Positions 7,524-48,055 of a DNA stretch of 64,000 nucleotides are shown here, in pieces; position 1 is the stretch's first letter; each line of letters starts with the position of its first letter. Below the pieces are notes generated by a model. That model worked only from the letters and a program-made list of their open reading frames with translations. It was not told the DNA's origin and searched no databases. The stretch lies in NCBI GenBank assembly GCA_000146465.1, contig CP001947.1; one strand, 5' to 3'. Position numbers and translations under genes: made by a program.

Positions 7524-8068
7524 TCAAGACGAGACTGCTCTGTTCGACAAGTTAAGTGCCTCTGCCTGCTCGGCAAGCTCTCGGGCTCTTTGCTCATCGG
7601 CCTTTCTCTTGATTATGCTATCTTTCATGTGGAATCTGTGCTTGAAAAGATGGCCCTTTGCCTGCTTGTAAAACACTCGGAAGTCTTCCTTGGTGATCTC
7701 TCCATTGGCCCTCATCTCCTTCAGCATCTTCCTCATTGCACGAATCTTCTTCATCCATAGCTCCTTCCTTGGCATTCTTGCATTGGCCGTACCAAAGCGC
7801 TTTCCAGGCCCCATGTGCCTCCCCTTCTTCTTGGCTGCCAGGCGCTTTCGGAGTCGTCCTCTGCTGGTGTGCTTGTCCTGCTTCATAATAATCACATTGT
7901 CTTGTATCAGCTGCCTAATCTGATCCCGAGTGGTTGCTCCGTTGAGCCTCTCAATTTCGTTGTTATCCAACCAAAGCTTCTTCTTCCCACATCCTAGGAT
8001 GTCTGCTGCCAAACGCCTGACTCTCTCCTCGTTCGACCTTCAAATTAGAAATGATCCATCACTTACAT
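7524..8068 (-). CDS. RPL19: 60S ribosomal protein L19e, interrupted by a 29-nt intron that splits the start codon (AT|G)
   Basis: Body matches L19e (GCGKKKLWLD...GRHMGPGKRFGTANARMP). There is no in-frame ATG for the conserved N-terminus. Upstream the minus strand reads AT-GTAAGTGATGGATCATTTCTAATTTGAAG-GTCGAACGAG... Splicing gives MSNEERVRRLAADILGCGKKK, which matches the canonical ...QKRLAASVL N-terminus. Exon 1 is about 8067-8068, the intron about 8038-8066. Confidence 0.8.
8038..8066 (-). other. spliceosomal intron (29 nt) of RPL19
   Basis: 5' GTAAGT, branch-like CTAAT, 3' AG. Removal restores the conserved L19 N-terminus in frame. Confidence 0.7.
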
Positions 8069-8152
8069 TTTTAGGGTGCAAATTTTTCCGGGCTTTTGCC
8101 TAAAGGCCTGATCAAACAACTCTCCAAAAACAAGATTTATTCGTCCGAGTCT

Positions 8153-8641
8153 CTAGGCCTCGCATCCACACTGCCAAATCTCATCAACGGTCCTGCAATC
8201 AACAATAGTCTTTCCAAGTCTCTCGTTAACTATGTTGTGGACCTCGCACAGCCATGTCTTGAATTCCTTACCACTTCCAACTCTTGGAGGATGATCTTGA
8301 ATCAGCTTTTGAAAGTGCTTAGTACACTCACCACAGGGAAACAGAGATGACAGGAGATGAATGAAGCTTAGGGTATCTTTCTTCTGCTGGAAGCTTGGCG
8401 ACGCTGGATATCTCGACCCCATTGTGTGGAGTAGTGTCCATGTAGCCCTTCCCAGCCTTTCTCTTATCTCCTTCTTGTTCATCTTCCTCACCTGAAAGTC
8501 TTCAAGCCTAACTCCATTCCAGGAGGATAGGTTGGAAATCTTCTTTTCTCTATTTCCTGCTACAAACTCGTAGCATCTATATATAATCCATGCTGCAATC
8601 AGTACTGCTAAGATCTTTCCATACCCCTTCTCTCTCTTCAT
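8153..8641 (-). CDS. FAD-linked sulfhydryl oxidase, Erv1/ALR family (Erv2-like with N-terminal membrane anchor)
   Basis: Motifs WTLLHTM...YP, CGEC..HF CxxC, WLCEVHNIVNERLGK, C-terminal CxxC. The track start is GTG. First ATG is 5 codons in. Confidence 0.75.
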   Translation of the reverse strand: MKREKGYGKILAVLIAAWIIYRCYEFVAGNREKKISNLSSWNGVRLEDFQVRKMNKKEIRERLGRATWTLLHTMGSRYPASPSFQQKKDTLSFIHLLSSLFPCGECTKHFQKLIQDHPPRVGSGKEFKTWLCEVHNIVNERLGKTIVDCRTVDEIWQCGCEA

Positions 8642-8802
8642 GTTTATACTCCACACTTCTTTATTTATAGACTTTCATGTTTCATCCTTATCACTCCTCA
8701 TCAGTTTTCGTCCCTTGGATATTTACTTGACAGAGCTCTTGAAAGCCGGATATCCAGTCATACTCGCAAGGAATAAATATAGCTGGTTGGCAGACCCCAA
8801 GG

Positions 8803-9741
8803 ATGAAAACACTTCCGAAGTTCAAGCCGTTTGTCCAGGCTTGTACAGACTGCGGAGAAACACAGAACATAGTCGAAGACTACAAAAACGGATACCATGT
8901 GTGTGGAAGATGTGGATGTATTGTGGGAAACAGAATCATAGACGAGGGAAGCGAGTGGAGATCATTTGGAGATAGCAATAAGGTAGATCCATGCCGAATC
9001 GGAAGTGCAAGTAACCCTTATCTCGAATCGGAACAGCTAGACACCATTATAAGCACAGGCGGAGGAATGAATTCCTATATGCTGTCGAAAATCCAGATGA
9101 AAAACAGCATGAGAGGTCCAGAAAGAGCTCTAAAGCATGGGATGAATCTTATCACTGCATTCTGTGAGAGGTCGAATCTTTCAAGGACCATCATCGACAG
9201 AGCACATTACATCTTCAAGAACATCGAGGAGAGAAAGCTTCTGAAGGGTAAAAACGTGGAAGGGATTGTTGCAGCCTGCATATACATAGCATGCAGGCAA
9301 GAGGAGTGTCCCAGAACATTCAAGGAGATAAGTGTGATGACTGCTGTACAGAAAAGAGAGATAGGAAGATGCTTCAAGTTGATATCTCCCCACTTGGAGA
9401 GGATGGCAACAATGTCTACAGAGAATATAATAGCAAGATTCTGCTCCGATCTTAATTTGAACATCAAGATCCAGAAGATTGCTACAGAAATAGCAAAGGC
9501 AGCACATGAGCTGGGATGTCTTGCAGGTAAAAGCCCTGATTCCATAGCAGCAGCAGTCATATACATGGTAACAAATCTATTTCCCGAGGAAAAGAGAATC
9601 CAGAAGGATATTCAGTTTGTAACCAATGTCACGGAAGTTACAATCAAGAATACATATAAAGAATTGCTGGCCTTCAAATATGACATAATCCCCGAAAACA
9701 TGGTCTGCAAGGAAAACATAGACAAACTCCCTGGATATTGA
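8803..9741 (+). CDS. TFIIB: transcription initiation factor IIB
   Basis: N-terminal Zn ribbon (CTDCGETQNIVEDYKNGYHVCGRCGCIV) followed by two cyclin-like repeats. 312 aa. ATG confirmed. Confidence 0.85.
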   Translation: MKTLPKFKPFVQACTDCGETQNIVEDYKNGYHVCGRCGCIVGNRIIDEGSEWRSFGDSNKVDPCRIGSASNPYLESEQLDTIISTGGGMNSYMLSKIQMKNSMRGPERALKHGMNLITAFCERSNLSRTIIDRAHYIFKNIEERKLLKGKNVEGIVAACIYIACRQEECPRTFKEISVMTAVQKREIGRCFKLISPHLERMATMSTENIIARFCSDLNLNIKIQKIATEIAKAAHELGCLAGKSPDSIAAAVIYMVTNLFPEEKRIQKDIQFVTNVTEVTIKNTYKELLAFKYDIIPENMVCKENIDKLPGY

Positions 9742-9801
9742 TGAGATGCTAAGGACTGTAATTTCTAGGGATAGAGATATGCATAAGAATTAAAAATTCC
9801 T

Positions 9802-10263
9802 TTATTTCTTTCTTGAAACACCCATGGACTTCCCACGTCTTCCATTTGACTTGGTCCTTTGTCCACGGACCTTGAGGCCAACATCGAGTCTGCATGCTCT
9901 GATGCGCTTGTTCTTCTTTCCTCTTTCAATCATCATTCTTAGATCTGCATCGAGTTTTGTACCTATGAGATGGGATGTTGTCCCGTCAACAGGATCCTTC
10001 TGATGGTTTAGATAAGATTCCGGAATTCCTAGGCTTGCAGGGTCGAGAATTGCATCTGAAATCCTCTTCATCTCCTCCTCAGACATTTCTCCGGCACGCC
10101 TCTTCAAATCAATCCCAAGGCGCTTGCATATGGCTGTCGAGATTCTTATTCCCACACCTCTGATCTTTGTAAGAGCAAAAGCAATTCTCTTTGTCCCGTC
10201 AATGTTGGTGTTGTGGATACGAACGATGTACTGGACGTCAGCCGGGTCGTAGACATAGTTCAT
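9802..10263 (-). CDS. RPS18: 40S ribosomal protein S18 (uS13)
   Basis: IVRIHNTNIDGTKRIAFALTKIRGVG...RGQRTKSNGRRGK matches the S18/uS13 family. Full length, ATG. Confidence 0.9.
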   Translation of the reverse strand: MNYVYDPADVQYIVRIHNTNIDGTKRIAFALTKIRGVGIRISTAICKRLGIDLKRRAGEMSEEEMKRISDAILDPASLGIPESYLNHQKDPVDGTTSHLIGTKLDADLRMMIERGKKNKRIRACRLDVGLKVRGQRTKSNGRRGKSMGVSRKK

Positions 10264-10358
10264 TTAAGGGATTAAATTTTTCACGGTTCAAAATGAAGGC
10301 AGACTTTCAAGATGGAAAGACAACAGGACGTAGTAACAGATAAAACCAAAAGTATACT

Positions 10359-10643
10359 TTATTCCTCCAGAAGCATCTTTGTCAACTTCTTCATCCTCTT
10401 TCCTGCACGCTTGTGAGACCCCAATCTCTTTCGGAGAATCCTCTGTGCCTTGCTATTGTTCTTTGCCTCAATAAGCGAAATAACTTTCTTCTCAAGTGGA
10501 GAATAACCGCATAACTCCTCTGCAACTGAGGCTGCAAACATGCGTATCTTTCCAGACTCCTCGCTGGGCTTCTTGGCTTCTCTCTTCACATCGGGCCTCT
10601 TTACTGGATAACGTACTCGAACTTTCTTGAGAGCGTTCTTCAT
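10359..10643 (-). CDS. RPL36: 60S ribosomal protein L36e
   Basis: The C-terminal 94 aa of the track ORF (AEELCGYSPLEKKVISLIEAKNNSKAQRILRKRLGSHKRAGKRMKK) match L36e. The upstream part of the track ORF is run-through. ATG at 10643. Confidence 0.8.
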   Translation of the reverse strand: MKNALKKVRVRYPVKRPDVKREAKKPSEESGKIRMFAASVAEELCGYSPLEKKVISLIEAKNNSKAQRILRKRLGSHKRAGKRMKKLTKMLLEE

Positions 10644-10695
10644 TGCAGGGCCGAGAAAAATTTTAATTCTACAAGGATGCAGTCCTTGCAAACCA

Positions 10696-13287: not shown

Positions 13288-13415
13288 TAAAATATCTTAA
13301 AGCACGCGATTGCGCTTCCTGTGTAATCTACTTCTCATCAAAACTGAAACAAGAAAGAGGCCGAAGCTATTTATTCAAGAAGGGCTTGACTTCCGTGCAG
13401 GCCCGTGGGTCTGGC

Positions 13416-13637
13416 TCAAGGCTTGCTTGTATTCTCTTGCTTCTTGATCTCTCTCTGCTTCTGCCGCTCCCTTAAGAAGTTCCTCTTCTTTGTCTTTAAG
13501 ATCTTGATCTTGCTAAGGAGGCTCTTTCTTTCCTCCTGCTTCTGCTGCTTTATTCTCAGCCTCTGCTTGAAGGAGAGGACTGTATTGGGATCTTTTTGTT
13601 TCTTCTCCTTCCATACCTTCAAGTAAGTTTTGCTCAT
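13416..13637 (-). CDS. small lysine-rich basic protein (73 aa), possibly nucleolar/ribosome-associated
   Basis: MSKTYLKVWKEKKQKD...REIKKQENTSKP. The upstream part of the 150-aa track ORF is run-through, and it overlaps the Sm gene on the other strand. Confidence 0.45.
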   Translation of the reverse strand: MSKTYLKVWKEKKQKDPNTVLSFKQRLRIKQQKQEERKSLLSKIKILKTKKRNFLRERQKQREIKKQENTSKP

Positions 13638-13721: not shown

Positions 13722-13937
13722 ATGGACAACACCCTGTACACAGCCTTTATAGGAAAGGCTGTTAAGGTCAAGATTTGCGACGGCTCTGAGTTTAGAGGAA
13801 CATCGGCAGCAATAGATGCATATCTCAACATATCCTTGGAGTCTGTATTCTACCTTCAGAAAGGCCAAGAGCCCAGATATTATTCCTCTCTATTCATCAA
13901 AGGATCGTATATCGACCACATAGCATTGGATGTATGA
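13722..13937 (+). CDS. Sm-like (Sm/LSm) protein
   Basis: 71 aa. Sm1/Sm2 pattern (FIGKAVKVKICDGSEFRGTSAAIDAYLNISLESV...GSYIDHIAL). Confidence 0.65.
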   Translation: MDNTLYTAFIGKAVKVKICDGSEFRGTSAAIDAYLNISLESVFYLQKGQEPRYYSSLFIKGSYIDHIALDV

Positions 13938-16201: not shown

Positions 16202-17140
16202 ATGACGATGGAAATTAATAATAAGGAGGATGAAAATCTCTCTAGCTTTAAAAGGAATCTCAGGAAGATGATTCAACTGGAGGAGGAGGCCAAGAAGAGG
16301 AGAGAAGATCAAAGGTCCCGGAAGCTGGTCTCTATCAGGGTTGGGAAGATTGAGGGAATGGGAGAGTCACCTGAAAGAAAATTTGTTCAGGACAGGAAAA
16401 GGGTATTTGAAGAGCCAAAGGTGGAATATGAAGGAGAAGGAAAAGTAAGAGAGAGGATAGAAAGTTTCAGCAAGAAGGATGATGGTGTGGACGAAAGGAT
16501 TTTAGGCGAAGAAGAAAAGAAGGGTTTTGTTTATGATAAAGACCATGGAAGGAATGGAGAAGAGGCCCAAAACAGCACCAATGCTGAGAGGAAGGGTAGT
16601 GAGAGCCTGAAGATTGTAGAAGAATGTAAGATAAGTGTCAACAGAGAGGTATTGGAATCTGGACCTAAATATAAAGACGAAGAAGCAGAGGATGAATGCT
16701 TCAAAGAGATTTCCGTTGAAGACATCAAAAAGAGCCTCCTTGCAGAATTAGATTCGGAGAGGGAAAGTGAAGCAGATATCATAAGTACTGTGATGAAGTC
16801 TGAAAACTCAGCACCTTCGCAGCAGGAAGTTATATATGTTGACAGAGAAAGTAGTTCTTTGGAAACAGAAAAGAACCCATATAACATAGGGTGTAATGTA
16901 TATGCTTACGACATCCACTATAAGATCTCTGATCTGTCTTGGGGGAACCCATCTGGACATATAACTCCTAATGAAAAAGAACCATCGATTAGTAGCAACA
17001 AAAGTCCTGTAAGGGAACATGGAGACGTTAATCTGGAGGATGGACCTGTAACTTACCAAGATCTTGACGAGGAAAAGGAGGAGAAGGGATGGTTTTCTTT
17101 GATATTTGAGTCCGTTTTTTCTATCTGCTGTGGTAAGTAG
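16202..17140 (+). CDS. hypothetical acidic K/E-rich protein (312 aa)
   Basis: ATG at 16202. Highly charged, low-complexity N-terminal half. Ends ...FSICCGK. Confidence 0.5.
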   Translation: MTMEINNKEDENLSSFKRNLRKMIQLEEEAKKRREDQRSRKLVSIRVGKIEGMGESPERKFVQDRKRVFEEPKVEYEGEGKVRERIESFSKKDDGVDERILGEEEKKGFVYDKDHGRNGEEAQNSTNAERKGSESLKIVEECKISVNREVLESGPKYKDEEAEDECFKEISVEDIKKSLLAELDSERESEADIISTVMKSENSAPSQQEVIYVDRESSSLETEKNPYNIGCNVYAYDIHYKISDLSWGNPSGHITPNEKEPSISSNKSPVREHGDVNLEDGPVTYQDLDEEKEEKGWFSLIFESVFSICCGK

Positions 17141-17236
17141 AAATAAAGAGTTGTAATAGTTTTTAGCTAAGCCTAAGGGTCTTTGTCTTTATGCATCCAA
17201 GTAATAAAATTTATAGACGAAAATTCTAGCCCTGAG

Positions 17237-20663: not shown

Positions 20664-21014
20664 TCATGCCAGTCCCTTTTCCTTTAGGAGCTCGTCCTCA
20701 ACTCTTTTCCTCAGCTTCATCTGGAATCTCTCGAAATCATTGGTTGTATCCTCCTCACTAATGCTTTCTGGAATGAGCTTTCCTATCTCTTCTGGACTAA
20801 GATCCTTAATGTCAAACGACTCATCCTCAAGGTGGAGATTAGATATAGAGCACATTTCCCTCTCTCCATCCTTCCTCTGGAGAAGTACAAAGGTTGCATC
20901 GATGATGCCAACAATTATGCCATATGTTTTTCTTTTTTCTTTGAGTGCAGGTGTCACAATCCTTCCCAGCCTTACTGTCTTCTAAAGTTAGCCAAAAAGA
21001 AGCTCACTTACCAT
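20664..21014 (-). CDS. RPL14: 60S ribosomal protein L14e with a 30-nt intron directly after the ATG
   Basis: The spliced product MKTVRLGRIVTPALKEKRKTYGIIVGIIDATFVLL...NDFERFQMKLRKR matches L14e (KOW-like N-terminus; TDFDRFKVMKAKK-type tail). ATG at 21012-21014, intron 20982-21011, exon 2 from 20981. Confidence 0.8.
20982..21011 (-). other. spliceosomal intron (30 nt) of RPL14
   Basis: ATG|GTAAGTGAGCTTCTTTTTGGCTAACTTTAG|AAGACAGTAAGG. Canonical 5' splice site, GCTAAC branch-like box, 3' AG. Restores the L14e N-terminus. Confidence 0.75.
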
Positions 21015-21061
21015 TTTTAGGGCAAATTTTTGTGTAGATTTAACCGTAGGAAAGTACACTG

Positions 21062-21406: not shown

Positions 21407-23446
21407 ATGGTTATTAAAATTTCTATGGGAGATGGTGAAGATATTAGCTTTGATATCGAGAATCCTCCTCTAGATTCGAAGTTTGATGAGCTGTTAAAAC
21501 TTCTGGATACTAATAAGGTTTCTCGATCTATACAACATAAAATAGTATATGGATATAGAAGACGTCCAGAGCTTGCCATGAAGATACTTGAGCAGCTGAT
21601 CAGGGCTGACGGTGAGGATCAGATCACACTTCTACTTCTACTTGCATGCAAGCTTCAAGCAGGAATGGATGGAGTTGACATAGTACAAAGGATGGAGCTT
21701 TTTGAATCTCCAATGCTTGATATTCTCAAAGGATTTGCTTCTCTAAGGAAGGAGAGCTATGACGGAGCACTGTTTCTCTTTGGAAAGGCAGGGTTTTCTC
21801 TCGGGATCCAAATCTGCAACTATTATCTTGGGAACATTGCAGAAGCCAAGAAGTCTGAAAATAAGGTGGTGAAGGGATATTGTCTTCTAAAGGAAGCCAA
21901 AAGCAACGACGAGCTCCGGGAGGTTACACGATTGTTTCGGGAGACCGGCAAAAAGGATCTTCTGTTTGGACTAGGAGTCGGAGAGGATTATGAAAATCGG
22001 GAGAATGTTGATGTGAAGATGAGACTTATTGGGGAATTTGTGGAAAGAGGAGAGTTTCAAGAGGCATGGGAGGAAATGGAAGGGATGCCAAGGAGCGCAG
22101 AAGTTCTCTATCTAAGAGGAAAGGTAGAGCACATGAAAGGGGATTTCGAGAAAGCAAAGAGGTACTACACAGAAAGTCTGGAGTGTGATAGAGATTTCTT
22201 TAAGAGTGAATACAATCTACAAAGGATAGTCCAGAATAAGATGAGAGAAGCGCACTATCGGTCTCCCGAGTTTTGTGATTTCAAAGCCTATCTCGAGCTC
22301 AAGAACAAGATAGTTGATATAAATCTAGACGGATGCAGTGAAGAATTTCGGAATGTGGTCTCTGTGATAGCCAACAAAGGGCTGAGGAGAAGAGATACTC
22401 TTCTAAGAAGATATATGAAGCTGATAGGGAATCCATGGATTGAGAACTTTGTAGTGATGAACAATATTGGATATTCCCTGTGCAGTCACATGAGACCTTT
22501 TGACGAAACAGAAGAAAGGACGGAAGGAAACGACCGATTTCTTATTGGATCGATTGGAATAGATGAAGAAGACAAGAAATGGAGGGGAGAAGGAGAAGAG
22601 GGGGAAAAGAGAGCAAAGGAAGGAGAAAAGTATTTGAGAAAGGCATTAGACGAATGCCCTGATGAGTACAGGGAAGTGATAAGATACAACCTTGGATATG
22701 TGATGGAAGATAAAGAGTTGCTAGCAGATCTGTCATTAAAAGAAGCAAGGTTGCTGCTCTCAGTTGAAGGAGAAGGGATATCTTCCATTCCCAACGAGCT
22801 TGAACTAGCAGGGTTTTATCATATGAAGAGAAAGGAATTCAAATTAGCAAAAAAGATATTCCAGAAGTTGGATACATTGTACAGTAGCATTGGGCTTGGA
22901 AATATATACATTAGAAGCTTCTACAAGGACAAGGACGAATCTGCATTAGGGAAGGCTATGAAAGCGTTTTCCAAGGGGTTGAAGTCGTACTATTGTGGAA
23001 ATGGAGTTGGGATATGCCTTGCATTGAAGGGGAGGATGGAAGAGGCTATCGATGTGTTTAATAACGTTTCGATTGACTGGCCTGGAGGATATGTAAATCT
23101 TGGAAACACACTGATTCTTTGTAGAAGATATAGAGAGGCTATGGATGCCTTTTTGAAGACCTCTTCGATGAGATATTCTCGGAAGATGCTTGAAAGGCTC
23201 TGTAATATTGTTAATGAAATTGACGGATATAGACTGTGTGTGGATGTGGGGATAGCCGGGGCTAGAGAGAAGGCTTTTGAGCTTCTTGTTGAGCAAGGAC
23301 GGTTTGAGGAAGCTTCTAAGCTTGGAGTCTCTGATGAAAGGCTTGTAAGAATATACGACGAAAAGAGAGAAGAGGAAAGAAAGAAGAAGGAGGAGTTGAA
23401 GAAAAAGGCTGAGGAGATGAGGGAATACAGAAAGAGAAGAAAATAA
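21407..23446 (+). CDS. TPR-repeat protein with K/E-rich C-terminal tail (possibly Ctr9/Paf1-complex-like)
   Basis: 679 aa. Multiple TPR-like helical pairs. The C-terminus EERKKKEELKKKAEEMREYRKRRK. The Ctr9 assignment is tentative. Confidence 0.6.
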   Translation: MVIKISMGDGEDISFDIENPPLDSKFDELLKLLDTNKVSRSIQHKIVYGYRRRPELAMKILEQLIRADGEDQITLLLLLACKLQAGMDGVDIVQRMELFESPMLDILKGFASLRKESYDGALFLFGKAGFSLGIQICNYYLGNIAEAKKSENKVVKGYCLLKEAKSNDELREVTRLFRETGKKDLLFGLGVGEDYENRENVDVKMRLIGEFVERGEFQEAWEEMEGMPRSAEVLYLRGKVEHMKGDFEKAKRYYTESLECDRDFFKSEYNLQRIVQNKMREAHYRSPEFCDFKAYLELKNKIVDINLDGCSEEFRNVVSVIANKGLRRRDTLLRRYMKLIGNPWIENFVVMNNIGYSLCSHMRPFDETEERTEGNDRFLIGSIGIDEEDKKWRGEGEEGEKRAKEGEKYLRKALDECPDEYREVIRYNLGYVMEDKELLADLSLKEARLLLSVEGEGISSIPNELELAGFYHMKRKEFKLAKKIFQKLDTLYSSIGLGNIYIRSFYKDKDESALGKAMKAFSKGLKSYYCGNGVGICLALKGRMEEAIDVFNNVSIDWPGGYVNLGNTLILCRRYREAMDAFLKTSSMRYSRKMLERLCNIVNEIDGYRLCVDVGIAGAREKAFELLVEQGRFEEASKLGVSDERLVRIYDEKREEERKKKEELKKKAEEMREYRKRRK

Positions 23447-27749: not shown

Positions 27750-27822
27750 GGCCTCATAGCTCAATGGTTAGAGTGTCGGCCTACGGAGCCGAAGGTTGAG
27801 GGTTCGAGTCCCTCTGGGGTCG
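27750..27822 (+). tRNA. tRNA-Arg (anticodon ACG)
   Basis: Cloverleaf: acceptor GGCCTCA/TGGGGTC, D-arm GCTC-AATGGTTA-GAGT, anticodon stem TCGGC/GCCGA with loop CTACGGA, T-arm GAGGG-TTCGAGT-CCCTC, discriminator G. No encoded CCA. Confidence 0.85.
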
Positions 27823-30890: not shown

Positions 30891-31016
30891 TCCTCTTGAG
30901 TGTATTTTCTTTGGAGAGTCTTTTCTTCACAATGTTTCAAAGCCCCATCCAATCACATTGTTGTGTCTGGAACAAATGAATTCTGGTTTCTATAAATATG
31001 TTTTTTTTCCTAGGCC

Positions 31017-31210
31017 CTACCTCTCAAGCCAATCGGCTTTGATCAAGTGTAGTATCTGTTCTTGCCAGTGTAAGAACTGGCATTATCCGTAAGGATAAAT
31101 TCATCGAATTTTTGGATGGCAGGGTGATGTAGAGGAGCTTGAGCGCTTGCGTTTCGGCCAATCTACTTGAGGTCTGCAGGCTTCTGGGCTGTAGAGCCTA
31201 GGAAAAGCCG
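31017..31210 (+). ncRNA. U2: U2 spliceosomal snRNA
   Basis: GGCUUUGAUCAAGUGUAGUAUCUGUUCUUGCCAGUGUAAGAACUGGCA is near-identical to the universal U2 5' region (branch-point interaction GUAGUA, stem IIa). Stem-loop I AAGCC-AAUC-GGCUU. Sm site AAUUUUUGG at about 31107. 3' stem-loops then a T7 run at 31211-17. Confidence 0.85.
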
Positions 31211-33236: not shown

Positions 33237-33797
33237 ATGTTTGTGCTAGTTGAGACGGTGTATTTTATTCTCTTGCCAATAGTAACAGTTGCTTCTCACA
33301 TGTTCATGAACAACCTGACAAGACACGGACACATACCCCAAGGAATATCAAAGAATAACTATCAGTATTTTTACGCATACGGCCTGATTCTATCATTGCT
33401 ACTACCGATGAAGAACATCTATCCACTTCATCTTGGACGTAGGCTTGCAGAAACCAAGGTTTTCAAATACTCTAATAGAAGCAAAATGAGTATCCTGCAC
33501 TTTATTCACGGGCTGTTGTATTACACATTCGTTTGTGCACATCTTAGGAACAAGAGAATTGGAAACGTATATGTGTTTCTATTTCTCAATATCCTTCAGC
33601 TGGTTTCCCACTACTATGTCTTTGTCCGAAAGACGTTTGTGTACACCCATTACATTGTTGAGGTGATGATATACGGATTTATTTGTTGGGAAGTTAGAAC
33701 AATACAAATGCTCTTCAATTTGCTGTATGTATTGTCTTTTGTATTTTCGACAATTATGAACAGAAGGACTTGCAGAAGTAAGATATTTTCCAAATAA
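33237..33797 (+). CDS. hypothetical multi-pass membrane protein (186 aa)
   Basis: ATG-initiated. About 5 hydrophobic helices. No family recognised. Confidence 0.45.
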   Translation: MFVLVETVYFILLPIVTVASHMFMNNLTRHGHIPQGISKNNYQYFYAYGLILSLLLPMKNIYPLHLGRRLAETKVFKYSNRSKMSILHFIHGLLYYTFVCAHLRNKRIGNVYVFLFLNILQLVSHYYVFVRKTFVYTHYIVEVMIYGFICWEVRTIQMLFNLLYVLSFVFSTIMNRRTCRSKIFSK

Positions 33798-33811
33798 CGA
33801 ATATCCCCGTG

Positions 33812-34774
33812 ATGGATTTCAATCTTCTTAACCAAAAACTAACAGGGAAAACCGAGGTAGGACTTCTATCCACAGAGGATTATAAGCATATGATCAAAGA
33901 TGTTTATGACTACATAAGAGAAAACCATCCCCGTATAGACACATTTCTACTTCATGGAGAGGGTATACTCTGCCCTTTAAAAGCTCGGAGTTTTGAATTT
34001 TTCGTGCTTCTTGGAGTTTATTGCCCTATCCATCCTTTTAAGGACTTCATAAGTATAGAAACACACATGTCTCAGGAAGACAAGAACAATCTGGAGTCGG
34101 ACTCTCGGTGTATAGTTTATGATTCAAGCTATGGAGTCCTTTCCTTGAAAGAGTCTGAGGAAATGTATTCCAGAGATGTTCTTGTGGTGACTAGGAATCA
34201 AATGTTCTATGACTATTACCTCTACAAATATAATGCCAGGTCTTTCTACGAATTAGAAGGGCGAGACCGAATGCAGTACCTTGCATCTAAATGCAACAAA
34301 GGAGAGATGGTTCGGGATCTGCAGGTATTTGCAATAATATTTACATCGAGGGTCTACGAAGAGTTGGCAAGGTCAATAAGGAAAAAGCTTATTTCCAGGC
34401 GTAAGAATGCATACCTCCTGTTTCTAAAGGATCTTTCGTATGAAAGAATGATAACAATAGAGGGAACCGAATGCATTGTGATTGTTGATTGCCCTTTCTT
34501 TGAGTGTTCTCTTGAAATGCACATTCCTGTTGTAACGCCTTTTGAAGTTGAGTATGCGCTTTCCAGAGAGTGGAGAAGATTTGATAAAAACTCATTTCGT
34601 GTGGAGGATGAGGCTACGAGCAACTGCAAAGAACTGGATCTTGTGGAAAGAGCCGGGAAGATTCTACTAAGATCTTCTGGACAAATTGTTCCGTTTTCCT
34701 ATGAAGAAGAAGACATGGATATCCATAGCGGAGAAAGTGGGATTGCATGTAGGTACGACCATGAAGGCGTGTGA
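33812..34774 (+). CDS. hypothetical protein (321 aa); weak resemblance to the diphthamide-synthesis DPH1/2 family
   Basis: ATG is the second codon of the track ORF (GTG-ATG). Cys-containing blocks (SSYG..., IVIVDCPFFECS) are reminiscent of DPH2, but not decisive. Confidence 0.5.
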   Translation: MDFNLLNQKLTGKTEVGLLSTEDYKHMIKDVYDYIRENHPRIDTFLLHGEGILCPLKARSFEFFVLLGVYCPIHPFKDFISIETHMSQEDKNNLESDSRCIVYDSSYGVLSLKESEEMYSRDVLVVTRNQMFYDYYLYKYNARSFYELEGRDRMQYLASKCNKGEMVRDLQVFAIIFTSRVYEELARSIRKKLISRRKNAYLLFLKDLSYERMITIEGTECIVIVDCPFFECSLEMHIPVVTPFEVEYALSREWRRFDKNSFRVEDEATSNCKELDLVERAGKILLRSSGQIVPFSYEEEDMDIHSGESGIACRYDHEGV

Positions 34775-36961: not shown

Positions 36962-36981
36962 AACAAAAATGACAGTCCTAC

Positions 36982-37591: not shown

Positions 37592-38122
37592 TTAATGTCT
37601 CTTTAGCAAGGACTGATCAAATAGGAACAAACCTACGCCTTCTCCTCCACATCTTGTGCAGTTGACATATAAGTCGTTGAACTCCGAAATAGATTCTACC
37701 TGTTCGGCGATAAAATCCTCCAAGAATTGGACAATGGTCTCATCTCCTGCTTTTGCAGCTATTTCAGAAATAGTCAATATATTGTCAAGCACAGTCTGCT
37801 CAAACTCTTTGGAGGCCTTGAGAATATCACTTGTCTTTTCATACTTCTTTATGTCTGGAGCCTCTATGGTCCTGAACTCAATATTCAATCCTCTCATGTT
37901 CATAAAGTCAATGATTTTTTGTGCATGTTCGTTTTCCTCAAGACTGTTTTTCTTGAAGAAGCCAGCCAGTCCTTTGAGGCAGACATTGGGGTCTTCAAAA
38001 TGGGCAGCACATGCAGTGTAGAAGTAAAATGCATTGTACTCCAATAACAATTGAGAAGAGAGGAGTAGGCCTGCTTCCATTTTCCATTCATCAGTTGAAG
38101 CTTCTCTTGTCTCGGGATTCAT
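37592..38122 (-). CDS. ferritin-like protein
   Basis: Four-helix ferritin pattern. AAHFEDPNVCLKGLAGFFKKNSLEENEHAQKIIDFMNMRGLNIEF... and the C-terminal FLEDFIAEQVESISEFNDLY align with eukaryotic ferritin H/L (E-x-x-H ferroxidase region, FLE..FL.EQV). Anchored to the internal ATG (MNPETREA...). The track start 38290 would overlap Rqc2. Confidence 0.7.
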   Translation of the reverse strand: MNPETREASTDEWKMEAGLLLSSQLLLEYNAFYFYTACAAHFEDPNVCLKGLAGFFKKNSLEENEHAQKIIDFMNMRGLNIEFRTIEAPDIKKYEKTSDILKASKEFEQTVLDNILTISEIAAKAGDETIVQFLEDFIAEQVESISEFNDLYVNCTRCGGEGVGLFLFDQSLLKRH

Positions 38123-38213
38123 TGTATAGTAAACAAATATGTTGTTAAGAGTAGTTTCATCTTCTTTGAGATGATACTTACTCCAGAAATATTTGCAGAA
38201 AGAAAGAGCCCTG

Positions 38214-40160
38214 ATGAAGCAGAGATACACCTTTTTAGACATCAGAGCAACAGTCAACGAGTTGAAGCCTAGACTGGTGGGAAAGTTCATCCAGAACTTC
38301 TATACGACATCTCAGAGAATCATCTACATAAAGTTCAGTAACAAAGATATCCTCCTTGTCGAGCCGGGTGTTAGAATCCACTTGACGCAGGAGCATGACA
38401 TGGACATTTCCCATTTCTGCAAGATTCTGCGAAGAAAGGCCAGAAGAGACAAGGTTGTTGATATATATCAATGCGGATTTGATCGGGTGGTTGTTTTAGA
38501 GCTTGGAAGGCAGAAGATTGTATTTGAATTCTTTTCAGGGGGGAATATTTTGATTGTAGAAGATGGAAAGATAGCAGAAATATTTCGGGTTGTCAAGGAC
38601 TTAGATATTGTCAAAGGGTCAGAGTATGTGTTCAATAAGGTTGACTTTGACCTTAGCATTGATGCTTTTATCAAGAACGATCTGAAAGATTTTCTCCCCC
38701 TAGACGACCTCCTGGTCAAGAAGGTCTTGAACGAACTAGGCACCCGGATCAAGGCTGATCCTATAGACATGAAAAAAGCAGCACAGAACGGTATTCCGAT
38801 AAAGGAAGATGTCAAGAGCATATTCTTGGAGTTCATGAGTGAGTTCCGAAAGACGATGGAGGATATTCAAGGATATGGAGGTGTTATCATGGAAAAGGGA
38901 AAGCCATCGAATCTGATTCCATTTAAGGCTGATGGGGCAAAGGACTTCAACACATTTAATGATGCTGCAGAGTATTTCTTTCAAGGGAGAAAGAAATTTG
39001 GAAAGAACGATAGAGAGACAAAAGTGGATAAGGTGAGAAAAAGACAAGAAAACTATATGAAGGAGATGGAGCAGCAGGGAGAATGTTATAGGAAGAAGGC
39101 AGAGCTATTGGAAAAAAATGCGGATCTTGTTAACCGAATCCTGGAGATCTTCAAAGTTGTTAGAAAAAACAAAGTGAAATGGACGGATTTTGAAAAGTTC
39201 CGAGAACAAGAGAACAAGAAAGGAAGCGAGGTTTCCAAGGCTATTGTGAAGACGGATTTTGTATCCCACACATGTTGGATAACTTTAGAAGGAGAAGAGA
39301 TTCCGATTGATTTTAATATCTCACTATTCAATAATGTAAGCGAGTTTTATCAAAAAAGTAAGAAACTCGAAGAGAAGATTAGGAAGACTAGAGACAGTCT
39401 TGGAGAAGTGCTAAAGAAGATAGCGCCAAAGGTGGAGACTAAGAAAATCACAAGAACTCTGTATTGGTTTGAGAAGTTCCATTTCTTCTTTTCTTCAGAC
39501 GGTGTACTTGTGATCGGGGGGAAAACTGCCCAGCAGAATGAAATTCTTGTTAAGAAGCATCTAGAGCCTACAGACTTGTACTTCCATAGTGATGTACATG
39601 GTGCTTCAAGTATTATTGTCAAGAAGCCTACAGAGAAGACTATTGTAGAGACGGCATCGATGGCGCTTTGTATGTCAAGATGTTGGGAGACAAATGTTGT
39701 TTCTCCTGTATGGTATGTTTATGGTGAACAGGTTAGCAAGACGGCACCTTCAGGGGAGTATTTGGGAAAAGGGTCTTTTATGATAAAGGGAAAGAAGAAC
39801 TATGTGGATTGCCATAAGATAGAGTATGGGCTAGGATTGTTATTTCGAGTTTTCGAGGATATTGAAAAGCAGGTTGAAAACATGAAGGTTGATGAGAAGG
39901 AAAACCACAAGTTTGTGAGCGATCCGGAGGGGATGGAGATTGTCCATTCGATGCCTGTGTGTGGGCCTTGGAGTGTCATATCGACCTACAAATATAAAGT
40001 CAGGCTTGTGCCCGGAAGAGAAAGAAAAGGAAAACTGGTGCAGGAAGTATCGAAAAGATTTGTTGGGCAGGCGCCTGATAGCGAGAAGAGCTATGTGAGA
40101 AGTATATCGGTAGAAGAATACATTAACGTTCTTTTTGGAAATGTCCGAATAGGAAAATGA
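38214..40160 (+). CDS. RQC2: ribosome quality-control complex subunit Rqc2/Tae2 (NEMF; NFACT family)
   Basis: N-terminal FbpA/NFACT-N (MKQRYTFLDIRATVNELKPRLVGKFIQNFY...HLTQE). C-terminal NFACT-R (LYFHSDVHGASSIIVKKPT...WYVYGEQVSK). The track start is TTG. First ATG is at 38214. Confidence 0.75.
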   Translation: MKQRYTFLDIRATVNELKPRLVGKFIQNFYTTSQRIIYIKFSNKDILLVEPGVRIHLTQEHDMDISHFCKILRRKARRDKVVDIYQCGFDRVVVLELGRQKIVFEFFSGGNILIVEDGKIAEIFRVVKDLDIVKGSEYVFNKVDFDLSIDAFIKNDLKDFLPLDDLLVKKVLNELGTRIKADPIDMKKAAQNGIPIKEDVKSIFLEFMSEFRKTMEDIQGYGGVIMEKGKPSNLIPFKADGAKDFNTFNDAAEYFFQGRKKFGKNDRETKVDKVRKRQENYMKEMEQQGECYRKKAELLEKNADLVNRILEIFKVVRKNKVKWTDFEKFREQENKKGSEVSKAIVKTDFVSHTCWITLEGEEIPIDFNISLFNNVSEFYQKSKKLEEKIRKTRDSLGEVLKKIAPKVETKKITRTLYWFEKFHFFFSSDGVLVIGGKTAQQNEILVKKHLEPTDLYFHSDVHGASSIIVKKPTEKTIVETASMALCMSRCWETNVVSPVWYVYGEQVSKTAPSGEYLGKGSFMIKGKKNYVDCHKIEYGLGLLFRVFEDIEKQVENMKVDEKENHKFVSDPEGMEIVHSMPVCGPWSVISTYKYKVRLVPGRERKGKLVQEVSKRFVGQAPDSEKSYVRSISVEEYINVLFGNVRIGK

Positions 40161-41506: not shown

Positions 41507-42106
41507 TGTAAGCTTGAATGAATATTTAGATTTTTATTTTCTTCTTCTGGACTCCATGGTATTATAGCCCCCTAGGACATGGAATAGATCCTTTATGAAA
41601 TACTTTAATTACTTTAAAAGTCTCGGATAGGCTAAATGTTCTTTCGCCTAGCATATGTTCTTGGGGATGATATACAATTAGGTTATAAAGCTAAGACATT
41701 TTGGGCAAAGACCCAACCAAAAGATTTCCGTCCTTCATGGGAATTGGCGGCCGGTTTATTTCCGTAGTACTCATGCATGCTGAGAAGTTTTCTGGTAAGA
41801 ATCCTGTGCTTGGAGATCCTTTGTCTTTGGTTTTATCTATTCTCAAAGAAAAGAGATTTTTTTCTAATTTATTCTGGAGAATCCTTGGAACCTCGAGGCT
41901 GCCTGAAGCTTTCATCAGGGTGGCAGTTAAGGCCTGTTTTTTAATAACTTCGTACTCCAACAAAGAGGAATTGAAAGAAGTAGGACGATAACCAACTGCT
42001 CTTGGATTTAAACAGAAGGACTTGGAGCCTGATTTATGTTTCCAACTGGAAGTGTACCCTTGCTAAGTTTTCCCACTCTATATATTCTGCATATGTAAAT
42101 GTCCTT

Positions 42107-42634: not shown

Positions 42635-42764
42635 AGTCAGTATACGCATTACAAACGACTGAGAATTGGAAACCTTGTTTCATGGAGGAACTCCCTGAGT
42701 CGTCTTATCTGCGATGAAACAAGTAGGAGTAGTATATAACTACTTTGAAAAGGTTTAGTAACAT

Positions 42765-44600: not shown

Positions 44601-44669
44601 ATAAAACAATTTATTTGCCAATGGTTCTTAGAAATTAATGCCTTGGGAGTGGTATTATGTGGTTTTTCC

Positions 44670-44888
44670 TTACATAAAGAAGTCCATAGCGGGACTGGGG
44701 TTTTTACGGAAAAACCTAGAACCGTCAAAGCAGTCGAGAAGCCATTCAAGAGTAAGCCTTTCCTCCACCTTAAGGCTTTCCATCATCTCTTTCAACTTAT
44801 GATTATATTCTATTACATTTGCAATGTCCTCCTCAAGCTTCTTAAGCTTTGTTTCTAGTTCTTTATTAATTTCTTCCCTTGATTCCAT
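44670..44888 (-). CDS. hypothetical small coiled-coil protein (72 aa)
   Basis: ATG-initiated ORF filling the 44.6-44.9 kb gap between VTC4 and CDC23. Heptad-like sequence. Could be spurious. Confidence 0.3.
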   Translation of the reverse strand: MESREEINKELETKLKKLEEDIANVIEYNHKLKEMMESLKVEERLTLEWLLDCFDGSRFFRKNPSPAMDFFM

Positions 44889-44912
44889 GGAAAGGGTATT
44901 TTGGAGTTGAGT

Positions 44913-46304: not shown

Positions 46305-46362
46305 CAGGGCTTGGAGCTCCAAAAATTTGTTGCCCAATAAATGGACTTGAAATTGGTCCCTG

Positions 46363-47637
46363 ATGGATTTGGAGAAAGTACGTATTTCTCAAAAGAAGGT
46401 TATCAACATTGTATTTGTCGGCCATGTTGATGCAGGAAAGTCAACGATATGCGGGCAGATCCTTGTTCAAATGGGATTGGTAGATCCAAGGACATTGGAG
46501 AAGTATAAGGAGATGTCTCGAGAACAGAATAGAGAAAGTTGGTATTTGAGCTGGTGTCTGGACATCAATCCTGAAGAAAGAGAGAGGGGAAAGACTACAG
46601 AAGTAGGAACGGCATCGTTTGAGCTTCCTCACAGAAGAATAAATATACTAGACGCACCGGGGCATAACCAGTTTGTATTTGAGATGATAAATGGGGCCAA
46701 CCGAGCGGATGTGGGGATACTGGTTATATCTGCAAGGATAAACGAGTTTGAGGCGGGGTTTGAAAAGGGAGGTCAGACTAGAGAACACATCTTTTTGTTA
46801 AAGGCCGGAAGTGTCCAAAGGTTGATTGTACTAGTTAATAAGATGGATGATCCAAGTGTGGGATGGAACAAGAGTAGGTTCGATGAGATCAAGGACAAAG
46901 TCTCGGCATTTGTTAGAAGGATGTTTCCTGTCCCTGTATTTATTCCTGTTAGTGGATTTACTGGAGAATACATCAAGGACAAAGGATCATGCCCATGGTA
47001 CGATGGGGAATCTTTTCTTTCGGAGCTCGACAAGATAACAATCCCAAGAAGATCGGATGTGCCTTTGGCAATTACTGTTACAGAAAAGGTAAAGCTAATG
47101 GGAATGACGATTTTGTACGGGAAGGTTGAATGCGGAAAGGTAACTCCCGGGATGCCAATAAAAATCCTGCCACACAATACAAAGAACTTCATTTCGTCTA
47201 TAATGGATGATGAAGATGTTGAAATTGAGGAAGGGAATCCAGGAGATGTTGTGAAACTGAAGCTAAAGGAGGATCCAGATGATGTATCAGTTGGAACTAA
47301 AATACTAGATCTCAACAACATGGATTACAGATCTACACAGGAATTTACATGTGGATTAAACATACTCGACGTCGATACAATAATAAGCTCTGGGTATACA
47401 TGTATTCTTCATGTAGGAATTGCTACCGTTCAGTGCAAAATAAAAGAAATAAGGGACATCAATAACAAGAAGATCAGATTCTGCCGCCATGGAAGTAAGG
47501 TTCTTGCAAAGATAGTGGTTTCATCTCCTATCTGCGTTTTTCATGGTAACAAGGATGAAGAAGAAAGACAGAGATTTGCACTGAGGCTCGAGAGTAAAAC
47601 CATTGCTGTAGGTGTAATAAGAACCGTAAAAGAATAA
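46363..47637 (+). CDS. EF1-alpha-like translational GTPase of the eRF3/HBS1 subfamily
   Basis: GHVDAGKST, DAPGH, NKMD. GFEKGGQTREH is the eRF3/HBS1 signature. Beta-barrel domains II/III. 424 aa with no N-terminal extension. Confidence 0.8.
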   Translation: MDLEKVRISQKKVINIVFVGHVDAGKSTICGQILVQMGLVDPRTLEKYKEMSREQNRESWYLSWCLDINPEERERGKTTEVGTASFELPHRRINILDAPGHNQFVFEMINGANRADVGILVISARINEFEAGFEKGGQTREHIFLLKAGSVQRLIVLVNKMDDPSVGWNKSRFDEIKDKVSAFVRRMFPVPVFIPVSGFTGEYIKDKGSCPWYDGESFLSELDKITIPRRSDVPLAITVTEKVKLMGMTILYGKVECGKVTPGMPIKILPHNTKNFISSIMDDEDVEIEEGNPGDVVKLKLKEDPDDVSVGTKILDLNNMDYRSTQEFTCGLNILDVDTIISSGYTCILHVGIATVQCKIKEIRDINNKKIRFCRHGSKVLAKIVVSSPICVFHGNKDEEERQRFALRLESKTIAVGVIRTVKE

Positions 47638-47698
47638 AACACTCCGGCTTAAGAATCGCTGACTCCTGGAGGATTTTTATGAAAGTTCGGAAAGTCTT

Positions 47699-48055
47699 TT
47701 AATTATGAGAGCTTACCCTGTTCGGATTGAATCCATATCTGATCTTTCTTCCTTGAGAAGAGCGGACTCTAACTATCTTGGCGTGGCACGCACAAGACAC
47801 GCAGAACTGTGACTTATAGCCCATCCTTGGAACTTCAAACACTTCGTAGATGGTTTTCTCTTTCAGATCATCAAATGAGGCCTGTTCAATGAGAGACTGA
47901 ATCCTAAATCTTTTGATTGCCTTATCCTTAGGTGTTACACTGCCGCACTTATCGCACTGGATGGGCTTCACACTTCCTCTGTTCTTCTTTGATCTCCCGT
48001 GGTTTCTTCTTTTAACTGTCTATAAAATTAGAATGCTTCGCCTATCACTTACCAT
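47699..48055 (-). CDS. RPS26: 40S ribosomal protein S26e with a 33-nt intron directly after the ATG
   Basis: ATG(48053-55)|GTAAGTGATAGGCGAAGCATTCTAATTTTATAG|ACAGTTAAAAGAAGAAACCACGGG... The spliced product [28 protein letters not shown]... matches S26e ([26 protein letters not shown]). The track ORF lacks this N-terminus and starts at an internal GTG. Confidence 0.85.
48020..48052 (-). other. spliceosomal intron (33 nt) of RPS26
   Basis: 5' GTAAGT, CTAAT branch-like box, 3' TAG. In-frame restoration of the universally conserved S26 N-terminus. Confidence 0.8.

What the first reader, a model, noticed from the sequence alone, without database searches (positions are those of the whole stretch)
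7524..48055. Shared intron architecture in three ribosomal-protein genes
All three introns start GTAAGTGA. Each carries a (T/G)CTAA(T/C) branch-like box 6-8 nt before the 3' AG, followed by a T-run: CTAATTTTATAG, CTAATTTGAAG, GCTAACTTTAG. Lengths are 29-33 nt. All three sit at or inside the start codon. This constrained structure supports a reduced but functional spliceosome. It is consistent with the U2 snRNA and Cwc24, Sm and LSm genes found in the same window. It also gives a search motif for further missed 5' micro-exons in this genome.
Basis: inference. Interest (0 to 1): 0.55.

Follow-up and report, generated by a model that had tools for sequence, protein, structure and literature searches.

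The report
Known start-codon mini-introns in Encephalitozoon ribosomal genes
Three ribosomal-protein genes in this stretch of the microsporidian Encephalitozoon intestinalis each carry a genuine 29-33 base intron at the start codon, but these introns are already annotated and their stereotyped design has been described in the literature, so the finding is correct but ordinary.

Summary
On the minus strand there are three introns of 29, 30 and 33 nt: 8066..8038, 21011..20982 and 48052..48020. Each begins GTAAGTGA. Each has a CTAAY box whose branch A lies 6-8 nt from the 3' junction, followed by T's and AG. They sit inside the start codon (AT|G) or directly after it (ATG|).

The composite pattern occurs 3 times against 0.03 expected (0 of 300 simulations reached 3). 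Removing the introns gives eL19, eL14 and eS26. These products are identical, residue for residue, to proteins already deposited for E. intestinalis ATCC 50506 chromosome VI (ADM11708.1, AHL30120.1, ADM11746.1).

Introns at the same position, with the same GTAAGTG...CTAAYT...AG signals and variable spacers, occur in E. cuniculi, E. hellem, E. romaleae and Ordospora colligata. The window also holds a U2 snRNA with the GUAGUA branch-binding box, a Cwc24-like gene and one LSm6-like gene. I found no second Sm gene.

Published work has already described this architecture, its 5' bias, the reduced spliceosome and the motif-based search for missed introns (Katinka 2001 as cited in PMC6349667; Peyretaillade 2009; Corradi 2010; Lee 2010 as cited; Grisdale 2013). 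A relaxed scan of the window found no further credible intron.

Verdict: real, correctly interpreted, already known.

The parts
7524..8068 (-). eL19 (60S ribosomal protein L19) gene. Exon 1 is 8068..8067 ('AT'), the intron is 8066..8038 (29 nt) and exon 2 is 8037..7524 including the stop codon.
   Evidence: The spliced translation (171 aa) hits Pfam Ribosomal_L19e N- and C-terminal domains at E=8e-22 and 2e-31. It is identical to ADM11708.1 of E. intestinalis ATCC 50506. The unspliced reading is 'M*'.
8038..8066 (-). Intron 1, 29 nt, phase 2 inside the start codon. The 5' splice site is GTAAGTGA, the branch box CTAAT lies at 8048..8044 (branch A at 8045, 7 nt from the 3' junction), and the 3' end is TTTGAAG.
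   Evidence: Orthologous introns of 31, 31 and 26 nt occupy the same AT|G position in E. cuniculi, E. hellem and O. colligata. E. cuniculi L19 is flagged '(intron)' in the PMC2803860 supplement.
8074..8087 (-). AAAAATTTGCACCC: an AAATTT-like signal plus a CCC-like signal immediately upstream of the eL19 ATG.
   Evidence: Sequence. It is conserved in all orthologues. It matches the E. cuniculi L19 entry AAAAAATTTGCACCCTGAAA in PMC2803860. That paper reports 5' UTRs under 7 nt.
20664..21014 (-). eL14 gene (Eint_061145, orthologue of ECU06_1215). Exon 1 is 21014..21012 (ATG), the intron is 21011..20982 (30 nt) and exon 2 is 20981..20664.
   Evidence: The spliced 106-aa product is identical to AHL30120.1. 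It is 82% identical to ECU06_1215. It matches ribosome chains 7qep_M4 (E=5e-53) and 6rm3_LM0 'eL14' (E=7e-29). Pfam L14e is only sub-threshold.
20982..21011 (-). Intron 2, 30 nt, phase 0 directly after ATG. The 5' splice site is GTAAGTGA, the branch box CTAAC lies at 20991..20987 (branch A at 20988, 6 nt from the 3' junction), and the 3' end is TTTAG.
   Evidence: Orthologous introns of 30, 30 and 28 nt are present in E. cuniculi, E. hellem and O. colligata. A second AG 3 nt downstream (AAG) would also stay in frame. The first AG is the one that reproduces the deposited proteins.
21020..21031 (-). AAAAATTTGCCC promoter or transcription-start motif upstream of the eL14 ATG.
   Evidence: The motif class is described in PMC2803860.
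47699..48055 (-). eS26 (40S ribosomal protein S26) gene. Exon 1 is 48055..48053 (ATG), the intron is 48052..48020 (33 nt) and exon 2 is 48019..47699.
   Evidence: The spliced 107-aa product hits Pfam Ribosomal_S26e at E=7e-38, aligned from profile position 1. It is identical to ADM11746.1.
48020..48052 (-). Intron 3, 33 nt, phase 0 directly after ATG. The 5' splice site is GTAAGTGA, the branch box CTAAT lies at 48031..48027 (branch A at 48028, 8 nt from the 3' junction), and the 3' end is TTTTATAG.
   Evidence: A 33-nt intron sits at the same place in E. cuniculi, E. hellem and E. romaleae. E. cuniculi S26 is flagged '(intron)' in the PMC2803860 supplement.
48062..48074 (-). AAAATTTTTGCCC promoter or transcription-start motif upstream of the eS26 ATG.
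   Evidence: PMC2803860.
31017..31209 (+). U2 snRNA gene. Its branch-point-binding box GTAGTA lies at 31049..31054.
   Evidence: Rfam RF00004, 83.5 bits against a gathering score of 46, E=5.6e-15, full-length match. The sequence was read.
5995..6300 (-). Cwc24/RNF113A-like splicing factor, a minimal 101-aa protein with a CCCH zinc finger followed by a RING finger.
   Evidence: Pfam zf-CCCH at residues 14-34 and RING at 53-90. The best PDB sequence hits are yeast CWC24 (5gm6_a, E=1.5e-16) and human RNF113A (5z56_M, E=4e-16).
13722..13937 (+). LSm6-like Sm-fold protein, 71 aa.
   Evidence: Pfam LSM domain at E=1e-9. The best PDB hits are LSm6 chains (3jcr_6, E=9e-8). It is the only Sm-fold ORF found in the six-frame scan.

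Best explanation
The window is part of chromosome VI of the microsporidian Encephalitozoon intestinalis. The three elements are ordinary U2-type GT-AG spliceosomal introns of the miniature, highly stereotyped kind typical of Encephalitozoon.

Inferred mechanism, drawn from the published work on the sister species:
- Transcription starts a few bases upstream of the ATG, just after the AAATTT/CCC signal. The 5' exon is therefore only about 5-10 nt long.
- U1 snRNA pairs with the near-perfect GTAAGT donor.
- U2 snRNA pairs through its GUAGUA box with the CTAAY box and bulges out the branch adenosine. That adenosine lies only 6-8 nt from the acceptor.
- The first AG after a short T-run is used as the acceptor.

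What is shown here: the sequence anatomy; that splicing is required to make the proteins, because an unspliced message stops after 1, 8 or 11 codons; the exact identity of the spliced products to deposited proteins; the conservation across species; and the U2 box.

What is not shown here: actual splicing in E. intestinalis RNA and the length of the 5' exon. Both are inferred from E. cuniculi RNA-seq and RACE data.
For: Organism: ORF 21407-23446 is exactly Eint_061160 of E. intestinalis ATCC 50506. The window's G+C of about 0.41 matches the published 41.4% (PMC4355639).

Intron anatomy.

Statistics: 3 composite matches against 0.03 expected, with 0 of 300 simulations reaching 3.

Restored reading frames: the spliced proteins are identical to ADM11708.1, AHL30120.1 and ADM11746.1. 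They align to the family profiles, or to the ribosome-structure chain, from the first residues.

Conservation: across 12 orthologous introns from 5 species, positions +1 to +7 read GTAAGTG, with one A-to-T change at +4. CTAAYT is invariant. The branch A lies 6-8 nt from the junction. Phase relative to the ATG is identical. Spacers differ.

Machinery: U2 with its GUAGUA box, plus Cwc24-like and LSm6-like genes in the window.

Literature:
- E. cuniculi introns are about 25 nt, GT-AG, and usually start in the codon right after the ATG of ribosomal-protein genes (PMC6349667).
- The Encephalitozoon U1 carries ACUUACC (PMC5499648).
- E. intestinalis and E. cuniculi share the same intron complement (PMC4355639).
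- E. cuniculi L19 and S26 are flagged as intron-containing, while S18 and L36 are not. This is the same pattern as in the window.
Against: No RNA evidence for E. intestinalis itself was available to me. No spliced-form protein from a transcriptome (Logan) source appeared in the cluster look-up.

In E. cuniculi most short introns are removed from fewer than 20-50% of transcripts (PMC3629993). One predicted 27-nt intron in a ribosomal-protein gene was found unspliced in a RACE product (PMC2803860).

U1, U4, U5 and U6 are not in the window. The donor-U1 pairing therefore rests on the literature.
Confidence: 0.95

Rival explanations
1. The introns double as a regulatory gate. The ATG is followed by a stop unless the intron is removed, and removal is inefficient. 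Intron retention could therefore set, or autoregulate, the output of a subset of ribosomal-protein genes, as in yeast RPL30- or RPS14-type feedback. This adds to the main explanation and does not replace it.
For: Retention gives peptides of 1, 8 or 11 residues. Very low and sometimes time-dependent splicing levels were seen in E. cuniculi, with 11 of 37 junctions differing between time points (PMC3629993). The introns have been retained at the same site across Encephalitozoon and Ordospora despite extreme genome compaction. Only 3 of the 5 ribosomal-protein genes in the window carry one.
Against: Grisdale et al. found most of the changes too small to support regulated splicing. They also saw no compensatory role in balancing ribosomal-gene expression. 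The 5' bias is equally predicted by passive, reverse-transcriptase-mediated intron loss that spares 5' introns (PMC6349667). The spacers carry no conserved element beyond the core splice signals.
Confidence: 0.15
2. The elements are not removed. The proteins start at a downstream non-AUG or internal codon, and the upstream ATG plus 'intron' is a tiny upstream ORF or leader.
For: Mechanical ORFs with TTG or GTG starts exist downstream: 7524..8012, 20664..20957 and 47699..47971. One predicted E. cuniculi intron in a ribosomal-protein gene was seen unspliced by RACE.
Against: Conserved N-terminal residues extend exactly to the predicted 3' junction and no further. Examples are SNEERVRRL matching the L19e profile from position 3, and [10 protein letters not shown] matching the S26e profile from position 1. 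Donor, branch box and acceptor are invariant in 12 orthologous introns while the spacers drift. RNA-seq confirmed splicing of all annotated E. cuniculi introns.
Confidence: 0.03
3. The shared motifs are a chance co-occurrence.
For: GTAAGTGA alone (3 against 1.68 expected) and GTAAGT alone (17 against 20.8 expected) are not enriched.
Against: The composite pattern gives 3 against 0.03 expected, with 0 of 300 simulations reaching 3. All three matches sit at the start codons of ribosomal-protein genes and restore full-length conserved proteins. All are conserved in other species.
Confidence: 0.01

Closest known systems
Miniature spliceosomal introns of Encephalitozoon cuniculi ribosomal-protein genes (Katinka 2001; Lee et al. 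2010, 'Constrained intron structures in a microsporidian'; Grisdale et al. 2013, PMC3629993)
   Same: The match covers every feature: GT-AG boundaries, a strict GTAAGT donor, a branch motif very close to the acceptor, a size within 22-76 nt, a position at or just after the initiator ATG and a host gene class of ribosomal proteins. The three introns here are the direct orthologues of the E. cuniculi L19, ECU06_1215 (eL14) and S26 introns.
   Different: Only species-level differences. The spacer sequences differ. The eL19 intron is 29 nt here against 31 nt in E. cuniculi. The +8 base is A in all three introns here but A, T or G in E. cuniculi.
Annotated intron set of E. intestinalis ATCC 50506 (Corradi et al. 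2010, PMC4355639)
   Same: These are the same introns. The deposited proteins equal the spliced translations exactly. The paper reports manually detected spliceosomal introns of 23-47 bp, shared with E. cuniculi.
   Different: None for eL19 and eS26. The eL14 gene carries a later-style locus tag and accession (Eint_061145, AHL30120.1), which suggests it was added in a later annotation update. That is my inference from the identifiers.
Yeast (Saccharomyces) ribosomal-protein gene introns
   Same: The same gene class is enriched for introns. The introns are 5'-biased, with near-consensus donor and branch (UACUAAC-like) signals. The U2 GUAGUA box is identical.
   Different: Yeast introns are generally 50-1000 nt (PMC3629993), and by general knowledge the branch point lies further from the acceptor. 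Here the whole intron is 29-33 nt and the branch A is 6-8 nt from the junction. The box is only CTAAY, not the full TACTAAC, in E. intestinalis.
Long conserved microsporidian introns (poly-A-binding protein and S23 genes; Whelan et al. 2018, PMC6349667)
   Same: Same organisms and the same spliceosome.
   Different: Those introns are about 76 nt in E. cuniculi. They have a conserved internal region with a predicted stem-loop and are spliced at about 80%. The three introns here are short, have no conserved internal element, and belong to the poorly spliced short class.

Membership tests
Encephalitozoon-type miniature U2-dependent spliceosomal introns | GT...AG boundaries | tested here: met
   All three introns begin with GT and end with AG.
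Encephalitozoon-type miniature U2-dependent spliceosomal introns | Strict 5' splice site GTAAGT, complementary to the U1 5' end ACUUAC(C) | tested here: met
   GTAAGTGA is present in all three introns. GTAAGTG is present in 11 of 12 orthologous introns. The U1 sequence is taken from PMC5499648, because U1 is not in the window.
Encephalitozoon-type miniature U2-dependent spliceosomal introns | Branch-point motif close to the 3' splice site and complementary to the U2 GUAGUA box | tested here: met
   CTAAY is present with the branch A 6-8 nt from the junction. The U2 gene in the window carries GTAGTA at 31049-31054.
Encephalitozoon-type miniature U2-dependent spliceosomal introns | Length within the published range (22-76 nt; 23-47 bp in the E. 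intestinalis annotation) | tested here: met
   Lengths are 29, 30 and 33 nt.
Encephalitozoon-type miniature U2-dependent spliceosomal introns | Removal restores a conserved reading frame, and retention gives a stop or frameshift | tested here: met
   The spliced products are full-length eL19, eL14 and eS26. The unspliced readings are M*, MVSELLFG* and [11 protein letters not shown].
Encephalitozoon-type miniature U2-dependent spliceosomal introns | Intron position conserved in orthologous genes of related species | tested here: met
   The position and phase are the same in E. cuniculi, E. hellem, E. romaleae and O. colligata.
Encephalitozoon-type miniature U2-dependent spliceosomal introns | Excision demonstrated at the RNA level | not testable with these tools
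   No E. intestinalis RNA data could be reached. For E. cuniculi, RNA-seq confirmed all annotated introns (PMC3629993).
Microsporidian ribosomal-protein gene promoter (AAATTT-like plus CCC-like signal; Peyretaillade 2009) | An AAATTT-like box followed by CCC within about 15 nt upstream of the ATG | tested here: met
   The upstream sequences are AAAAATTTGCACCCTAAAAATG, AAAAATTTGCCCTAAAAATG and AAAATTTTTGCCCTTAAGAATG. The intronless eL36 has AAAATTTTTCTCGGCCCTGCAATG. The motif is described in PMC2803860.
Ribosomal protein eL14 (third host gene) | Significant match to the L14e family | tested here: met
   Pfam L14e is sub-threshold (13.8 bits against a cut-off of 30.5). phmmer matches the E. cuniculi ribosome chain 7qep_M4 (E=5e-53), the chains named eL14 in 6rm3 (E=7e-29) and 6zu5 (E=9e-19), and more weakly eL14 of plants and archaea.

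The most novel reading that the evidence does not exclude
The start-codon introns might be retained because they act as an on/off gate for translation of a defined subset of ribosomal proteins, not only because 5' introns escape loss. In this window the subset is eL19, eL14 and eS26, and it excludes the neighbouring uS13 and eL36. Under this reading, inefficient splicing by the minimal spliceosome sets or feeds back on ribosomal-protein dosage. The invariant G at +7 and the fixed 6-8 nt branch-to-acceptor distance would then be constraints of a spliceosome working on a 5' exon of under 10 nt.
Probability: 0.12. Interest if true: 0.45.

Novelty: already known. Interest (0 to 1): 0.08.

Why it matters
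The result matters mainly as quality control. It shows that the first-stage reader can recover true micro-exon and intron structures from raw sequence, and can correctly link them to splicing machinery encoded nearby.

Biologically, these introns belong to a well-studied model of how far a spliceosome and its substrates can be reduced. Nothing in this window adds to that picture.

The only practical by-products are two annotation inconsistencies in related public genomes. The Ordospora colligata eL14 annotation lacks its 5' micro-exon. The E. cuniculi GB-M1 eS26 annotation uses an acceptor 9 nt too far downstream.

Tried and rejected
1. Relaxed intron scan. I searched both strands for donor GT[AG][AT]G[TA], any NTAAY box 1-14 nt before an AG, and a length of 18-90 nt. 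This gave 63 nested candidates.
   - Apart from the three known introns, only two joined long ORFs.
   - The candidate at 17133-17216 (+) has a GTAAGT that overlaps the stop codon of ORF 16202-17140. The downstream ORF is a complete YchF GTPase with its G1 motif at residue 19. I rejected it as two separate genes.
   - The candidate at 33778-33845 (+) has a non-consensus GTAAGA donor and is 68 nt long. It lies between an unassigned ORF and a diphthamide-synthesis ORF. I rejected it as unsupported.
2. All 17 GTAAGT sites were inspected. The only other site with an 'AT' in front (63028, +) lies in an intergenic stretch with no plus-strand gene.
3. Pfam scans of 64 ATG-ORFs found only 13722-13937. 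So did a six-frame hmmsearch with an Sm profile built from human Sm sequences recalled from memory plus the window's own LSm protein.
4. Pfam alone did not identify the third gene as a ribosomal protein. The question was resolved through PDB ribosome chains.
5. Lee et al. 2010 (Mol Biol Evol) could not be opened. Its content is cited only through papers that describe it.
6. The per-gene list of the 37 E. cuniculi introns is in a figure or PDF that is not held.
7. The alternative acceptor 3 nt downstream in the eL14 intron (TTTAG|AAG) keeps the frame, but it is not conserved. In E. cuniculi and E. hellem the next AG is 2 nt away and would shift the frame. The first AG is therefore taken as the acceptor.

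Full report
**1. What is in the sequence**

GTAAGTGA occurs three times in the window, each on the minus strand, at 8066, 21011 and 48052. Reading that strand shows three structures:

| Gene | Sequence around the intron | Intron length |
|---|---|---|
| eL19 | aaaAT\|GTAAGTGATGGATCATTTCTAATTTGAAG\|GTCGAAC | 29 nt |
| eL14 | aaaATG\|GTAAGTGAGCTTCTTTTTGGCTAACTTTAG\|AAGACA | 30 nt |
| eS26 | gaATG\|GTAAGTGATAGGCGAAGCATTCTAATTTTATAG\|ACAGTT | 33 nt |

The '6-8 nt' spacing holds when counted from the branch adenosine to the 3' junction (7, 6 and 8 nt). The gap between the 5-nt box and the AG is 3-5 nt.

**2. More than chance?**

The octamer alone is not significant (3 against 1.68 expected). The hexamer GTAAGT is not enriched either (17 against 20.8).

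The composite pattern is highly significant. GTAAGT...CTAAY...AG gives matches at 3 loci (5 nested) against 0.64 expected, with 0 of 100 shuffles reaching 5. With the start-codon context added there are 3 matches against 0.03 expected, and the maximum in 300 Markov simulations is 1.

The pattern does not occur at random intergenic positions, and every hit restores a reading frame.

**3. What the genes are**

Splicing gives proteins of 171, 106 and 107 aa.

- The first and third are eL19 and eS26 by Pfam, at E=1.9e-31 and 8.4e-22 for eL19 and E=7e-38 for eS26.
- The second is below the Pfam threshold for L14e. It matches chain M4 of the E. cuniculi ribosome structure 7qep (E=5e-53). It also matches chains named eL14 in the microsporidian ribosome structures 6rm3 and 6zu5.

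Unspliced, the messages read M*, MVSELLFG* and [11 protein letters not shown], so removal of the intron is required for protein production.

**4. Where the window comes from, and whether this is already annotated**

An exact-sequence look-up shows that ORF 21407-23446 is Eint_061160 of Encephalitozoon intestinalis ATCC 50506.

The three spliced translations are identical, first to last residue, to deposited proteins:
- ADM11708.1, 60S ribosomal protein L19
- AHL30120.1, Eint_061145
- ADM11746.1, 40S ribosomal protein S26

The window's G+C of about 0.41 matches the published 41.4% (PMC4355639). The introns are therefore already in the public annotation, with exactly these boundaries.

**5. Comparative evidence**

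I fetched the orthologous loci from E. cuniculi, E. hellem, E. romaleae and Ordospora colligata and compared the 5' ends.

Across all 12 introns:
- The phase relative to the ATG is the same.
- Positions +1 to +7 read GTAAGTG, with one GTATGTG in Ordospora eL14.
- The +8 base varies (A in 9, G in 2, T in 1).
- CTAAYT is invariant.
- The branch A lies 6-8 nt from the junction.
- The spacers between donor and branch box differ freely.
- Lengths are 26-31 nt (eL19), 28-30 nt (eL14) and 33 nt (eS26).

This is the signature of selection on splice signals only. The truly constrained donor is GTAAGTG, not GTAAGTGA.

**6. Machinery and promoter context**

Rfam finds a full-length U2 snRNA at 31017-31209 (83.5 bits). 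Its sequence contains the canonical branch-binding GUAGUA at 31049-31054.

A 101-aa protein with a CCCH finger and a RING finger (5995-6300, minus strand) has yeast CWC24 and human RNF113A as its best matches among solved structures. A 71-aa Sm-fold protein (13722-13937, plus strand) is closest to LSm6. I found no second Sm-fold gene.

All three intron genes are preceded by AAA(A)TTT..CCC within about 20 nt of the ATG. This is the ribosomal-protein promoter or start-site signal described by Peyretaillade et al., who measured 5' UTRs under 7 nt (PMC2803860). The 5' exon of these pre-mRNAs is therefore probably 10 nt or less. That is an inference.

Two further ribosomal-protein genes in the window have the same upstream signal but no intron: uS13/S18 (9802-10263, minus) and eL36 (10359-10643, minus). 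The E. cuniculi table in that paper shows the same pattern in the same order. L19 is marked as having an intron, S18 and L36 are not, and S26 is.

**7. Further introns?**

A relaxed scan and inspection of all 17 GTAAGT sites gave no additional credible intron. The two candidates that would join adjacent ORFs were rejected.

**8. Comparison with what is known**

Published descriptions cover every element of the finding.

- E. cuniculi introns are very short and GT-AG. [quoted passage not shown] A combined visual and string-search approach raised the count to 34 and then 37. All were confirmed by RNA-seq, but most are poorly spliced. The spliceosome is reduced to about 30 predicted proteins (PMC3629993).
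- U1 with ACUUACC was later found in all four Encephalitozoon species (PMC5499648).
- E. intestinalis shares the same intron complement, and its introns are unusually well conserved (PMC4355639).

**9. Verdict**

This is a real feature, correctly observed and correctly interpreted, and already known and annotated. The interest score is low.

One open reading remains: that retention at the start codon serves as a dosage gate for a subset of ribosomal proteins. It is not excluded, but the E. cuniculi transcriptome study looked for it and found no strong support.

Noticed in passing
L008:1380-1560 (Ordospora colligata GCA_052575955.1, contig JBLVQE010000004.1): The eL14 gene is annotated as a 90-aa protein (OCOL_000771) starting at an internal Met. 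The DNA shows AAATTTTGCCC..ATG|GTATGTGAATTCAATGCGCTAATTTAAG|AGAACAATAAGACTTGGA. This is a 28-nt start-codon intron that restores the conserved N-terminus MRTIRLGRII. That annotation therefore misses the 5' micro-exon.
   Followed up: partly
L009:601-960 (E. cuniculi GB-M1 AL590446.1, eS26): The GB-M1 eS26 protein is annotated as 105 aa (MRRNHG...), which implies a 42-nt intron ending at GTTAAG. The other E. cuniculi annotation seen (KMV66041.1 from EcunIII-L and UYI27741.1; 108 aa, MTVKRRNHG...) and all other species imply the 33-nt intron ending at the first AG after the branch box. That form also matches the S26e profile from position 1. The older model is probably 3 residues short.
   Followed up: partly
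window 9802-10263 (-) and 10359-10643 (-): Two more ribosomal-protein genes, uS13/S18 and eL36, have the AAATTT/CCC upstream signal but no intron. Only 3 of the 5 ribosomal-protein genes in the window are interrupted, the same pattern as in E. cuniculi. The mechanical eL36 ORF extends upstream to 10805 and overlaps the neighbouring plus-strand gene. The ATG at 10643 behind the CCC box is the likely start.
   Followed up: yes
window 13722-13937 (+): Only one Sm-fold gene, LSm6-like, could be found in the window.
   Followed up: yes
window 30990-31016 (+): The U2 snRNA gene is preceded by TATAAATA and by CCTAGGCCC directly at its 5' end. This agrees with the report that Encephalitozoon ncRNA genes share the TATA-like and CCC/GGG start signals of mRNA genes (PMC5499648).
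   Followed up: no
window 37592-38290 (-) versus 38214-40160 (+): The ferritin-like ORF, taken from its first ATG, overlaps the start of the NFACT-family gene on the other strand by 77 nt. The ferritin domain begins only at residue 76, so a later ATG (around MNPETREA) is probably the true start.
   Followed up: no
window 41507-42106: This roughly 600-nt stretch lies between the CDT1-like and PSF2 genes. It contains only short ORFs on both strands with no Pfam match, and it has no Rfam hit at the gathering threshold. That is unusually long for an 'empty' interval in this compact genome. It could hold a small unannotated gene or an ncRNA.
   Followed up: no
window 27750-27822 (+) and 63880-63951 (+): tRNA-Arg(ACG) and tRNA-Gln(CTG) genes, neither with an intron.
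   Followed up: no
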